64,000 bases of DNA from the NCBI RefSeq assembly GCF_030013205.1, contig NZ_CP122648.1. One strand, written 5' to 3'. This DNA is from Escherichia coli (GTDB taxonomy: Bacteria; Pseudomonadota; Gammaproteobacteria; Enterobacterales; Enterobacteriaceae). A program made the position numbers. This document shows positions 43,796-46,700 of this stretch, in pieces. The stretch's first letter is position 1, and each line of letters starts with the position of its first letter.

Positions 43796-46700
43796 GGTTA
43801 TGCGCTGATGCCTGATGCGGCGCGGGCGCGTCTTATCATACCCTGGAAGTCTGCGCCCGAATCGTAGGCCGCCTCCGCTATATTAACTGGCATTGGCAAA
43901 TTACTCGTCACTACCTTTATTCATGTTTTTTTGGTCTTCATCCGGATAATGTTTTTTTAGATATTCCAGGACGTTTTTATTGACCTTGTGTTGCGTATAC
44001 ACCCACCCTTTCCAGTAATCAGGCTGGTCCAGGTAAACTTCTGGCGGAATGGTGAAATCAGAAAGCGTTAACCATTCGGCTAATAGATCGGGGTTTCGTT
44101 TCTGGATTAACTGCAACAGCATAATCAGTGACATAGCTGAGGCAGGAGCCGTACTATCGCCACTTAAATATTTCCACACTGTTGACCGGTTCGAACGAAA
44201 AAGGATCGGTAGCAATGCCCGGTCCAGATTCATTTCATTAAAAATCTTCTCAAATTCATTCATTTAAATTTTCCTGCCTGGCGTAAACCTCTTAAAAATT
44301 GAGATTTATCAAAGAAACGCATTTTAGCACACATAAGGAACCGCTTCACGTTTAGTCCAGAAACAGAATTTATTTCGCTTATCAAAACAAGTCTTTACTC
44401 TTTTTTACATTGAAAGAGCACAAAATGATTTTCGATTTTATTTATATAAGAAACAATTTTTGTTTCTTATTGGTGGTGTTTACGCTTACACCAGACAAAA
44501 ATGCGCTTTACATCACACAAATGGCGGCGTAGATTTCGATTAAATTGCAACGCAGTTTATTTCTTAAAACAATATTATTTGTTTCTTATAGAAACATTAA
44601 TGCGACTTATTTTGAACAAGAGAAAATGAATGAAAACTGTAAACGTAGCTTTACTGGCACTCATAATTTCAGCAACATCCAGCCCTGTTGTTTTAGCTGG
44701 TGATACCATTGAAGCGGCGGCAACAGAGCTTTCAGCCATTAACTCTGGCATGTCGCAATCGGAGATTGAGCAGAAGATTACCCGCTTTTTAGAACGCACA
44801 GACAACAGCCCCGCTGCGTATACCTATTTGACTGAACATCACTACATCCCTTCTGAAACACCTGATACCACTCAGACTCCCACTGTCCAGACAGATCCTG
44901 ACGCAGGACAAAAAACCGTTGCCGCTACAGGTGATGTACAGACAACCGCCCGTTATCAGAGCATGATCAACGCCCGACAGTCTGCGGTAACTGATGCCCA
45001 GCAAACGCAAATTACAGAGCAACAGGCGCAGATCGTAGCCACACAAAAAACGCTCGCCGCGACTGGAGATACGCAAAATACTGCGCATTATCAGGAGATG
45101 ATTAATGCCAGACTGGCGGCTCAAAATGAGGCTAATCAGCGCACTACCACGGAACAAGGGCAGAAAATGAATGCACTGACAACCGATGTGGCAGCACAAC
45201 AGCAAAAAGAAAGGGCTCAATACGATAAACAAATGCAAAGTCTGGCGCAGAAGTCTGTCCAGGCACATGAGCAAATTGAAAGTCTGAGACAAGATTCCGC
45301 ACAAACGCAGCAACAGTTAACCAACACGCAAAAACGGGTCGCAGATAACAGCCAACAAATTAACACGCTCAATAACCATTTCGATTCTCTGAAAAACGAA
45401 GTTGAGGACAATCGTAAAGAAGCCAATGCGGGAACTGCATCAGCCATCGCTATCGCCTCACAACCACAGGTGAAAACCGGTGACTTGATGATGGTGTCAG
45501 CGGGAGCGGGAACCTTCAACGGTGAATCTGCGGTGTCTGTAGGAACATCTTTTAATGCCGGAACGCATACGGTACTTAAAGCAGGTATTTCTGCGGATAC
45601 ACAATCTGATTTCGGTGCGGGTGTCGGCGTGGGATATTCGTTCTAATTTTAACAGCAATTTCTTATTCGCAATTTTCCGTACATTATTTAAGGTTAACAA
45701 TGATGAATAGCTCCATTAAATCGTTTTCCCTGCTGGCGGTTATATTACTGGCTGGCTGTAGTTCACCCACTTCCCGCATCGCAGATTGCCAGGCGCAGGG
45801 CGTCAGCCATGACACCTGTTATCTCGCAGAACAACAGCGTCAGACGGCTATTTTAAGTGCATCCGAGGCGCAGGCATTTAAAAATGCAGAAGCCGCACAA
45901 CATGCCCAGGCGGCAAAGAAAGCCATTTATAAAGGATTTGGAATGACCTTTAGAATGAGCAGTAAAAACTTTGCTTATCTCAATGATTCATTATGTGCAA
46001 TTGATGAAGACAATAAAGATGCCACTGTTTATCAGTCAGGTCTGTATAACGTCATTGTTTATCATCACACAGGAAAAGTCGCCTTAATGAAGGAAGGTCA
46101 ATTTGTGGGTTATTTAAAATGAAGGAGCAAAGGAAAATACCCCTGACGCATATTATGATTATCGGTGCGTTTATTTTTGCCTTCTTGCAAGTAGTATTAT
46201 TAGCCTCCCTGGTTCACGCTGTGAATGTTAACAACGAAATCCAGGAAGGCTTATTTCAGTCGGGGCGCATTATGGTAGAAAGTTTGCAGCATATTCTTTC
46301 GGTGCAAACGGGGATTAACTGATTTTCACCCCGCCCGATGATGACAGCAGCCGGAGAGATTTTCGATAATCGGGCAGTCGGCGCTGTCATCGCCAGGGCA
46401 GGCATTCGCCAGCGCCAACAGCTGGTTGCGCATGGATTGCAGTTCTTCGATATGTCGCTCGATCTCCGCCACTTTCTCCAGGGTGCGACGTTTGACGTCG
46501 GCACTGTGACGCTGCGGATCGTTAAACAGATTCACCAGTTCGCCGCTCTCTTCCAGGTTAAAGCCCACCTGGCGCGCCTGGCGCAGTAAGGTCAGTTCGT
46601 TGAGATGCTGCTGCGTGTAGGTTCGATAACCATTTTCGCTGCGCATCGGCGGCGTCACCAGCCCCTTCTCTTCATAGAAGCGAATGGCTTTGCTGGTCAG

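What the first reader, a model, noticed from the sequence alone, without database searches (positions are those of the whole stretch)
43881..46325. AT-rich island between ybbJ and cueR encoding a mini trimeric-autotransporter-like protein with two coupled small envelope proteins
Between the ybbJ-proximal REP cluster and cueR lie four ORFs that I do not recall at this junction in K-12, where ybbJ and cueR are adjacent. They are a divergent 120-aa possible HTH protein, a 338-aa secreted protein with a YadA-type beta-barrel anchor, a 140-aa lipoprotein and a 67-aa single-pass membrane protein. The base composition is clearly AT-richer than the flanking core genes. A three-gene set of minimal trimeric autotransporter plus lipoprotein plus tiny membrane protein is not a described E. 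coli adhesin operon as far as I know. It could be a self-contained surface-display module with its own regulator and helper proteins, which makes it the strongest candidate for an undescribed system here.
Basis: partly seen in the sequence, partly recalled or inferred. Interest (0 to 1): 0.72.

Follow-up and report, generated by a model that had tools for sequence, protein, structure and literature searches.

The report
Known O-island 29: mini autotransporter cassette
This 2.6-kb insert is O-island 29 of pathogenic E. coli, already catalogued; it encodes a short surface-fibre protein of the trimeric autotransporter type with a partner lipoprotein, a tiny membrane protein and a small DNA-binding protein, and that fibre gene is the one published in 2018 as a "transcription factor" (GmrA), a claim the sequence does not support.

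Summary
Four ORFs lie between ybbJ and cueR, K-12 lacks them, and the insert (window 43711-46325) is AT-richer (GC 0.44 vs 0.54).

The 338-aa protein has a signal peptide, a coiled coil and a full-length YadA anchor (PF03895, E 1.6e-11).

The locus is not undescribed:
- It is O-island 29 (OI-29) of O157:H7.
- It is present in 1382 of 5426 complete E. coli genomes.
- RefSeq annotates the gene as a YadA family adhesin.
- The 042 genome paper (2010) listed it as a trimeric autotransporter.
- Yang et al. (2018) named it GmrA, a fliA-activating transcription factor. Their knock-out and cloning primers map exactly onto this ORF.

GmrA is acidic, has no DNA-binding domain, and was assayed with tags expected to block export. 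The island protein with a DNA-binding fold is the divergent 120-aa ORF (Xre/Cro-like by structure search).

One part appears unreported. The lipoprotein family is uncharacterised and sits directly downstream of a YadA-anchor gene in 14 of 23 Enterobacterales species loci, often with the HTH gene alongside. It is not related to the known helpers SadB or TpgA.

Verdict: the island is already known; the cassette reading and the conflict with the literature give moderate interest.

The parts
43711..46325 (.). The whole insert, equal to O-island 29 (OI-29); absent from K-12.
   Evidence: K-12 homology ends at 43710 and resumes at 46326. The published OI-29 deletion arms map to 43668-43706 and 46326-46363. 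GC is 0.437.
43673..43842 (+). REP elements (Rfam naRNA4 family) just after ybbJ, inside the insert.
   Evidence: RF02564 scores 66.2 bits at 43765-43842, above the gathering score of 59.5. Weaker copies lie at 43673-43742 (+) and 43709-43796 (-).
43901..44263 (-). 120-aa Xre/Cro-like helix-turn-helix protein (z0640 ortholog); the likely local regulator.
44264..44629 (.). AT-rich divergent control region with candidate operator palindromes at 44446-44470 (ATAAGAAACAA-ttt-TTGTTTCTTAT) and 44580-44596 (TGTTTCTtatAGAAACA).
   Evidence: GC is 0.306. There is a perfect 11-nt inverted repeat. Five of the six AGAAACA/TGTTTCT heptamers in the 64-kb window lie in these 366 bp, and they are conserved in other E. 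coli alleles. Binding has not been tested.
44630..45646 (+). 338-aa head-less trimeric autotransporter (type Vc); this is z0639, published as gmrA. Layout: signal peptide 1-23, small N-terminal domain of about 24-75, Pro/Thr-rich linker, two 45-aa repeats (92-136 and 137-181), coiled coil of about 197-266, YadA anchor 279-338.
   Evidence: PF03895 matches 279-338 at E 1.6e-11. PDB anchors of AtaA, Hia and YadA match. The repeats and hydrophobic N-terminus are, and the heptad and beta periodicity. The gmrA knock-out arms map to 44591-44629 and 45646-84, and the cloning primers to 44630 and 45625-43.
45700..46122 (+). 140-aa lipoprotein (z0638 ortholog) from an uncharacterised Enterobacterales family. 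Features: lipobox LLAG|C with Ser at +2, a conserved Cys30/Cys40 pair, a long polar helix (37-69) and a small C-terminal beta-barrel domain (75-139).
46119..46322 (+). 67-aa single-pass membrane protein, predicted N-in with a periplasmic C-terminus of about 35 aa; translationally coupled to the lipoprotein gene (ATGA overlap).
   Evidence: ORF. The maximum 19-residue hydropathy is 2.65 at residues 14-32. Homologs hold the same position in L005, L007 and L016-L018. No family match was found.

Best explanation
The region is O-island 29, a 2.6-kb accessory islet fixed at the ybbJ/cueR junction in about 25% of E. coli.

Shown:
- It carries a conserved four-gene cassette.
- The central gene (z0639, published as gmrA) encodes a short, head-less trimeric autotransporter: a Sec signal peptide, a small N-terminal tip domain, a repeat and coiled-coil stalk whose length varies between alleles (338 aa versus about 470 aa), and a C-terminal YadA-type anchor.

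Inferred:
- Three chains each contribute four strands to a 12-strand outer-membrane barrel, through which the acidic coiled-coil fibre is displayed on the cell surface.
- The two downstream genes encode a lipoprotein predicted to go to the outer membrane and an inner-membrane protein. They are co-expressed envelope partners of the fibre, probably supporting its biogenesis, stability or anchoring. This would be analogous in role to SadB or TpgA, but they are not homologous to either.
- The divergent 120-aa Xre-like HTH protein is the island's DNA-binding protein. It probably controls the shared AT-rich intergenic region through the AGAAACA/TGTTTCT palindromes.
- The reported loss of motility in gmrA mutants, if reproducible, is more likely an indirect envelope-to-flagella effect than direct promoter binding by this exported protein.
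For: Identity of the island:
- The region is 100% identical to porcine ETEC/O139 chromosomes and is present in 1377-1382 of 5426 complete genomes, always chromosomal.
- The O157 copy has the same gene order, and K-12 lacks the island.
- Primers from PMC5826968 Table S2 map onto the ORFs.

Autotransporter nature:
- PF03895 matches full length, E 1.6e-11, and solved anchors of AtaA, Hia and YadA match.
- NCBIfam EmaA and Vomp C-termini match, and PHROG adhesin and tail families with the same C-terminus match.
- The protein has a hydrophobic N-terminus, and heptad then beta periodicity further along.
- Databases name it an adhesin, and the 042 paper lists it as AT-2.

GmrA is not built like a DNA-binding protein:
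- Its pI is 4.9.
- The only DNA-related matches are weak coiled-coil ones: SMC, and TMF_DNA_bd at E 0.079.
- The His tag was placed in front of the signal peptide, and the 3xFLAG directly after the terminal Phe of the barrel.

HTH protein.

Cassette:
- HTH, TAA, lipoprotein and small protein keep the same order in Pseudocitrobacter (next to a recombinase).
- The same order occurs in a metagenomic enterobacterium, where the cassette lies between fetA and qmcA instead.
- Enterobacter asburiae also carries the pair.
- Among GTDB species genomes, 14 of 23 full-length lipoprotein loci have a YadA-type anchor gene on the same strand upstream: 13 immediately upstream and L033 about 1.9 kb away. Eight also have the divergent HTH gene.
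Against: - No experiment shows surface exposure, trimerisation or adhesion. Deletion of OI-29 did not change adherence to HeLa or Caco-2 cells.
- Published genetics in eight strains, an EMSA and a 7.75-fold ChIP enrichment support a fliA link for gmrA.
- Deletion of z0638 or z0640 had no motility phenotype, so there are no functional data for the partners.
- Nine of 23 lipoprotein loci have no adjacent autotransporter, and more distant relatives sit in phage- or plasmid-like contexts. The coupling is therefore not obligatory.
- The 67-aa protein is confined to Escherichia and Pseudocitrobacter.
- The promoter scan was not above shuffled controls.
- The operator assignment rests on motif enrichment only.
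Confidence: 0.72

Rival explanations
1. As published, the 338-aa protein (GmrA) is a cytoplasmic transcriptional activator that binds the fliA promoter directly, and its YadA-like features are incidental.
For: PMC5826968 reports the following. Deleting gmrA lowers fliA, fliC and motA expression and motility in O157 and seven other strains. Complementation restores motility. An EMSA with His6-GmrA (0-120 nM) was specific for the fliA promoter. ChIP-qPCR gave 7.75-fold enrichment. gmrA is epistatic with fliA.
Against: - The protein has a typical signal peptide and a complete YadA anchor.
- Its pI is 4.9.
- No DNA-binding family matches in Pfam or NCBIfam; the only such matches are weak coiled-coil look-alikes.
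- Both biochemical assays used constructs expected to trap it in the cytoplasm: an N-terminal tag before the signal peptide, and FLAG after the C-terminal Phe.
- The island has its own HTH protein.
Confidence: 0.08
2. The cassette is a phage-derived lysogenic-conversion ('moron') block. It would be an Eib/Lom-style surface protein plus a lipoprotein that alters the cell surface (serum resistance or exclusion of phages), stranded in the chromosome. On this view the lipoprotein acts on its own target rather than on the fibre.
For: PHROG 'adhesin' and 'tail' families match residues 95-338 (E 7e-22 to 8.5e-14). Phage genomes encode proteins with the same C-terminal half. Related cassettes lie next to serine recombinases (L005, L015). 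Lipoprotein relatives occur in a phage-plasmid-like contig and next to an Ail/Lom gene.
Against: The island has no phage, integrase or att-like features, and it is single-copy at one chromosomal site in 1382 genomes. Phage matches are only 28-38% identical and cover 57% of the protein or less. This origin would not exclude a functional fibre-lipoprotein partnership.
Confidence: 0.15
3. The lipoprotein and the 67-aa protein are an independent envelope pair that merely shares a transcript with the autotransporter. For example, the lipoprotein could be a periplasmic inhibitor or binder with an MliC/PliC-like small barrel.
Confidence: 0.25

Closest known systems
O-island 29 of E. coli O157:H7 EDL933 (z0638, z0639/gmrA, z0640; Yang et al. 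2018, PMC5826968)
   Same: It has the same chromosomal site, the same genes and the same order. The O157 protein is 338 aa and its gene is 96% identical to the window copy. The published primers map onto the window ORFs.
   Different: The paper treats z0639 as a DNA-binding activator and the other genes as hypothetical. It does not mention the signal peptide, the YadA anchor, the lipobox, the 67-aa ORF or the HTH fold of z0640.
SadB-SadA (Salmonella/E. coli) lipoprotein-assisted trimeric autotransporter operon (Grin et al. 2014, PMC3953254)
   Same: A trimeric autotransporter shares an operon with a small lipoprotein. Both lipoproteins have a lipid anchor, then a long polar helix, then a beta-rich C-terminal domain.
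   Different: There is no sequence or fold match to SadB or YajI. SadB is encoded upstream and is retained in the inner membrane by Asp at +2. This lipoprotein is encoded downstream, has Ser at +2 and is much smaller (140 aa). SadA is a giant fibre with head domains, whereas this one has 338 aa and no head.
TpgA-AtaA (Acinetobacter) periplasmic partner of a trimeric autotransporter
   Same: The partner gene lies downstream of the autotransporter gene (position from my own knowledge of Ishikawa et al. 2016) and encodes an envelope protein. The anchor of this protein aligns best with the AtaA anchor (9vnj, E 5e-7).
   Different: TpgA has BamE-like and OmpA peptidoglycan-binding domains. The lipoprotein here matches no Pfam family at all.
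Short coiled-coil trimeric autotransporters and phage-encoded YadA-anchor adhesins (PHROG 17426 / 26246)
   Same: They share the coiled-coil stalk plus YadA anchor.
   Different: Identity to phage proteins is only 28-38%, over 57% of the protein or less. The N-terminal tip domain is shared only with enterobacterial cassette homologs such as L005.

Membership tests
Trimeric autotransporter (type Vc secretion) | C-terminal YadA-like membrane anchor (PF03895), four strands per chain, ending in an aromatic residue | tested here: met
   PF03895 matches residues 279-338 over model positions 1-60 of 60, E 1.6e-11. Solved anchors of AtaA, Hia and YadA match. The protein ends ...GVGYSF, and beta periodicity is strong at 295-336.
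Trimeric autotransporter (type Vc secretion) | N-terminal Sec signal peptide | tested here: met
   The N-terminus is MKTVNVALLALIISATSSPVVLA|GD, with a mean hydropathy of 2.05 over residues 6-24. This is judged by inspection; no dedicated predictor was available.
Trimeric autotransporter (type Vc secretion) | Coiled-coil stalk running into the anchor | tested here: met
   There is a heptad-period signal at 197-266. Alignments to AtaA and Hia begin in the helix before the barrel, at residues 241-244. Pfam's YadA_stalk motif family did not match.
Trimeric autotransporter (type Vc secretion) | Head domain (YadA_head or other TAA head) | tested here: not met
   No head, neck or ESPR family appears in the Pfam scan even at E <= 10. 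A head is common but not required for the class. Its absence explains why this protein was outside the Dorison et al. 2026 neighbour survey.
Trimeric autotransporter (type Vc secretion) | Trimerisation, outer-membrane insertion and surface display | not testable with these tools
   This needs a multimer prediction or experiments.
Adhesin (functional sense) | Mediates adherence, aggregation or biofilm | not tested
   The only published data are negative: deletion of OI-29 left HeLa and Caco-2 adherence unchanged (PMC5826968).
O-island 29 (EDL933) | Insert between ybbJ and cueR with z0638-z0639-z0640 gene content | tested here: met
   plus the primer mapping.
DNA-binding transcription factor (claim for GmrA) | A recognisable DNA-binding domain in a cytoplasmic protein | tested here: not met
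   Pfam and NCBIfam return only coiled-coil look-alikes: TMF_DNA_bd at E 0.079 and SMC far below its cut-off. The pI is 4.9. Export signals are present at both ends of the protein.
Xre/Cro-type HTH regulators (120-aa protein) | Five-helix lambda-repressor-like DNA-binding fold | tested here: met
SadB/YajI lipoproteins | Homology to SadB, an inner-membrane Asp+2 signal, and a gene upstream of the autotransporter | tested here: not met
TpgA | BamE-like plus OmpA_C domains | tested here: not met
   No Pfam match at E <= 10.
MliC/PliC lysozyme inhibitors | Eight-strand barrel with the inhibitor loop motifs | tested here: inconclusive

The most novel reading that the evidence does not exclude
The 140-aa lipoprotein family would be a third, unrecognised class of partner dedicated to trimeric autotransporters, after SadB and TpgA. 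In Escherichia and Pseudocitrobacter it would act with the 67-aa inner-membrane protein. It would serve short head-less fibres in Enterobacterales and be controlled by a cassette-encoded Xre-type regulator. As a corollary, the published 'transcription factor GmrA' would be an outer-membrane fibre whose effect on fliA is indirect or an assay artefact. A 2026 global survey concluded that further helpers are unlikely, but it only examined autotransporters that carry a YadA head, so it excluded this cassette.
Probability: 0.35. Interest if true: 0.6.

Novelty: already known. Interest (0 to 1): 0.38.

Why it matters
The island itself is catalogued, so its presence adds nothing new. Two points are still useful.

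First, a gene now cited in reviews as an island-encoded flagellar activator has the full architecture of an exported outer-membrane fibre, and the island's real HTH protein is a different gene. The regulatory model for OI-29 therefore needs re-testing with export-competent constructs.

Second, the fibre-lipoprotein(-HTH) cassette recurs across Enterobacterales at unrelated chromosomal sites. This gives a concrete and cheap test of whether some trimeric autotransporters use partners other than SadB and TpgA.

Tried and rejected
- **Family searches on the three small proteins.** Pfam, NCBIfam and PHROG gave nothing above threshold. The weak TraV, XAC1346 and Rz-spanin matches cover only the lipobox and helix, so I dismissed them.
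- **AFDB fold search.** It returned only unnamed lipoproteins.
- **Prophage origin.** Phage hits are distant and partial, and the island has no integrase or att features.
- **Promoter scan.** It found 4 sites against 4.8 expected, which is uninformative. It found 9 terminator-like sites against 3.7 expected, none convincing except a weak hairpin at 45617-45641.
- **Rfam.** It found only REP/naRNA4.
- **EDL933-specific knock-out arms.** Three of them (z0638 R, z0640 R, gmrA F) do not match this strain, because the spacers differ. The assignments rest on the other arms and the cloning primers.
- **First anchor HMM.** My first home-made anchor HMM missed two divergent anchors (L020, L021); a second round recovered them.
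- **Literature.** I found no paper in the searchable library that links GmrA to autotransporters. Subscription-only papers, such as E. coli autotransporter surveys, could not be checked.
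Full report
**1. What is in the sequence.**

- 120 aa at 43901-44263 (-).
- 338 aa at 44630-45646 (+).
- 140 aa at 45700-46122 (+).
- 67 aa at 46119-46322 (+), overlapping the previous stop (ATGA).

They lie between ybbJ (43257-43715) and cueR (46326-46733; NCBIfam CueR E 6e-93).

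In K-12 MG1655 the stop codons of cueR and ybbJ abut. BLAST homology to K-12 stops at window 43710 and resumes at 46326. The insert is therefore 43711-46325 (2615 bp). It includes the REP cluster, which Rfam recognises as naRNA4/REP (66 bits at 43765-43842).

The insert has GC 0.437 against 0.542 for the whole window. The divergent intergenic region has GC 0.306, while the 338-aa gene is close to normal at 0.482.

**2. Whose genome, and how common.**

The region is 100% identical to chromosomes of porcine ETEC/O139 E. coli. At least 80% of it is present in 1377 of 5426 complete E. coli genomes.

The 338-aa gene alone is found in 1382 genomes. It is always chromosomal and almost always single-copy. 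There are two allele groups: at least 95% identity in 1029 genomes, and 80-90% identity with a different N-terminal half in about 350.

RefSeq calls the protein 'YadA family autotransporter adhesin' and the other three 'hypothetical protein' or 'lipoprotein'.

**3. It is O-island 29, and the 338-aa gene is 'gmrA'.**

A search for the EDL933 locus tag led to Yang et al. 2018 (PMC5826968). That paper describes OI-29 as a 2,643-bp island with z0638, z0639 (gmrA) and z0640.

I mapped their Table S2 primers onto the window:
- The OI-29 deletion arms lie at 43668-43706 and 46326-46363.
- The gmrA arms lie at 44591-44629, ending one base before the ATG of the 338-aa ORF, and at 45646-45684, beginning at the last base of its stop codon.
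- The gmrA expression primer starts at 44630. The FLAG primer ends on the last sense codon, at 45625-45643.
- The z0638 arm lies at 46122-46160, so z0638 is the lipoprotein gene.
- The z0640 arm lies at 44263-44301, so z0640 is the 120-aa gene.

The 67-aa ORF is not treated as a gene in the paper. RefSeq annotates it.

The 042 genome paper had already listed the ortholog Ec042-0536 as one of two trimeric AT-2 proteins, with 'no clues to the function'.

**4. The 338-aa protein is a trimeric autotransporter by every sequence test available.**

- Pfam YadA_anchor matches residues 279-338 over the full model (E 1.6e-11).
- The solved anchors of AtaA, Hia and YadA align from the last stalk helix to the C-terminus.
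- NCBIfam EmaA and Vomp C-terminal models match.
- PHROG adhesin and tail families with the same C-terminus match (E 7e-22).
- The N-terminus is a standard signal peptide (MKTVNVALLALIISATSSPVVLA|GD).
- There are two 45-residue repeats (92-136 and 137-181). A heptad signal runs over 197-266 and a strong alternating (beta) signal over 295-336.
- No head, neck or ESPR family matches, so this is a short, head-less fibre.

The divergent allele in L003 is mis-started in RefSeq. The open frame gives a protein of about 470 aa with the same signal peptide and N-terminal domain and a stalk about 130 aa longer.

The N-terminal domain (residues 4-77) is also conserved at 40% identity in a 633-aa homolog from Pseudocitrobacter. 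So the tip and the anchor are kept while stalk length varies, as is usual for this class.

**5. Conflict with the published function.**

Yang et al. report the following:
- gmrA mutants lose motility and fliA/fliC expression in eight strains.
- His6-GmrA shifts a fliA promoter fragment.
- GmrA-3xFLAG gives 7.75-fold ChIP enrichment.
- Deleting the whole island does not alter HeLa or Caco-2 adherence.
- z0638 and z0640 mutants have normal motility.

Their 'putative DNA-binding domain' came from a CDD search. In my scans the only DNA-related matches are weak coiled-coil look-alikes: TMF_DNA_bd at E 0.079, and SMC at 24 bits against a cut-off of 567.

The protein is acidic, with pI 4.9. The His tag was put in front of the signal peptide, and the FLAG tag directly after the terminal Phe that outer-membrane barrels need. 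From established knowledge of Sec export and BAM recognition, both constructs should stay in the cytoplasm. The binding assays therefore did not examine the protein in its natural form.

I cannot judge the genetics. An indirect route from envelope changes to flagellar expression is an inference, not a result.

**6. The other three proteins.**

120-aa protein:
- The AlphaFold model built on 11 homologs has pLDDT 83.
- It is the only protein in the island with a DNA-binding fold.
- The 366-bp region it shares with the autotransporter gene holds a perfect 11-nt inverted repeat (44446-44470) and a second palindrome (44580-44596). It also holds five of the six AGAAACA/TGTTTCT heptamers in the whole window, and these are conserved in two other E. 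coli alleles. I read these as candidate operators; this is an inference.

Lipoprotein:
- It matches no Pfam family.
- It has a lipobox with Ser at +2, so it is predicted to go to the outer membrane under the Lol sorting rule. It also has an invariant Cys pair, a long polar helix and a confidently modelled small beta-barrel domain.
- An exhaustive profile search found just 152 representative clusters among 1.84 billion proteins.

67-aa protein:
- It has one transmembrane segment with a positively charged N-terminus.
- It matches no family.

**7. Is it a module?**

The same order (divergent HTH, YadA-anchor gene(s), lipoprotein, small membrane protein) occurs in several places:
- In Pseudocitrobacter faecalis, next to a recombinase. 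There are two YadA-type genes there; the second is judged only from its C-terminal sequence.
- In a metagenomic enterobacterium, where the cassette sits between fetA and qmcA rather than between ybbJ and cueR.
- In Enterobacter asburiae, where the autotransporter-lipoprotein pair occurs.

A scan of one genome per species returned 51 loci. I searched them with home-made HMMs:
- 14 of the 23 loci with a full-length lipoprotein homolog have a YadA-type anchor ORF on the same strand upstream. Thirteen are immediately upstream; in L033 it lies about 1.9 kb away. The genera are Escherichia, Pseudocitrobacter, Enterobacter, Phytobacter, Rahnella, Yersinia, Ewingella and Pantoea.
- Eight of them also have the divergent HTH homolog.
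- Nine have the lipoprotein alone.
- Matches limited to the N-terminal helix region, in Buttiauxella, Aeromonas and Pseudomonas, have no autotransporter nearby. The one exception is Lelliottia (L049).
- More distant relatives lie in phage- or plasmid-like contexts or beside an Ail/Lom gene.
- The 67-aa protein is limited to Escherichia and Pseudocitrobacter. In Rahnella and Ewingella a different, non-hydrophobic small ORF follows the lipoprotein gene, in Serratia a related ORF follows it, and no such ORF was seen in Yersinia.

The linkage is frequent and independent of chromosomal site, but it is not obligatory.

**8. Comparison with known systems.**

Two partners of trimeric autotransporters are known: SadB, an inner-membrane trimeric lipoprotein encoded upstream of sadA, and TpgA, which has BamE-like and OmpA domains.

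The lipoprotein here resembles SadB only in outline: a lipid anchor, a polar helix, then a beta domain. It fails every membership test for SadB and TpgA.

A 2026 preprint surveyed the neighbours of autotransporters that carry both a YadA head and an anchor. It found only SadB and TpgA and judged further helpers unlikely. Head-less proteins such as this one were outside its data set.

**9. Verdict.**

The finding is real, and its gene-by-gene reading is largely correct. As an island it is already known (OI-29), it is common, and it is already annotated as a YadA-family adhesin.

Two things remain of interest. The sequence contradicts the published transcription-factor assignment of GmrA. And the cassette (fibre, unnamed lipoprotein, small membrane protein, Xre-type regulator) is conserved across genera and is not described in any paper I could search.

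The function of the fibre is unknown. No adhesion phenotype has been seen.

Noticed in passing
window 46730-64000 (-): Immediately beyond cueR the window carries a type I secretion locus that K-12 lacks; K-12 has ybaT there. It consists of a HlyD adaptor (46730-47905), an ABC permease/ATPase (about 47902-50064) and a giant Ig-like repeat protein starting near 50068 and running past the window end. In the identical strain K_EC180 the giant gene is flagged as incomplete. This corresponds to the RTX-like locus noted in O157 and in 042.
   Followed up: partly
window 43673-43842: The REP elements (Rfam naRNA4 family, one copy above the gathering score) lie inside the island. The ybbJ-proximal edge of OI-29 is therefore REP sequence, and K-12 has no spacer at all at this junction.
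   Followed up: yes
L003:1700-3139 (E. coli O99:H6 CU42ET-1): The RefSeq CDS for the long autotransporter allele (WP_123058816.1, 349 aa, starting 'LKADD', no signal peptide) appears to start too late. The frame is open upstream. A Met start gives a protein of about 470 aa with the same signal peptide and N-terminal domain as the 338-aa allele.
   Followed up: partly
L023, L028, L032, L036 (Rahnella, Serratia, Ewingella), just 3' of the lipoprotein gene: In these genera the small gene next to the lipoprotein gene is a different, non-hydrophobic 71-81-aa protein (MNRQHSDQFRHLPPDQQY...), not the 67-aa membrane protein. It overlaps the lipoprotein stop in Rahnella and follows shortly after it in Serratia. 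Its function is unknown.
   Followed up: no
L005:2766-4532 (Pseudocitrobacter faecalis): A second secreted coiled-coil protein of 588 aa, ending ...GSLSVGW, lies between the 633-aa autotransporter and the lipoprotein gene. It looks like a second YadA-type protein, so this cassette has two fibres. It sits next to a serine recombinase, which suggests a mobile context.
   Followed up: partly
window 44446-44470 and 44580-44596: Palindromes built from AGAAACA/TGTTTCT are concentrated in the divergent promoter region: five of the six such heptamers in the 64-kb window lie there. They are candidate operators for the 120-aa HTH protein.
   Followed up: partly
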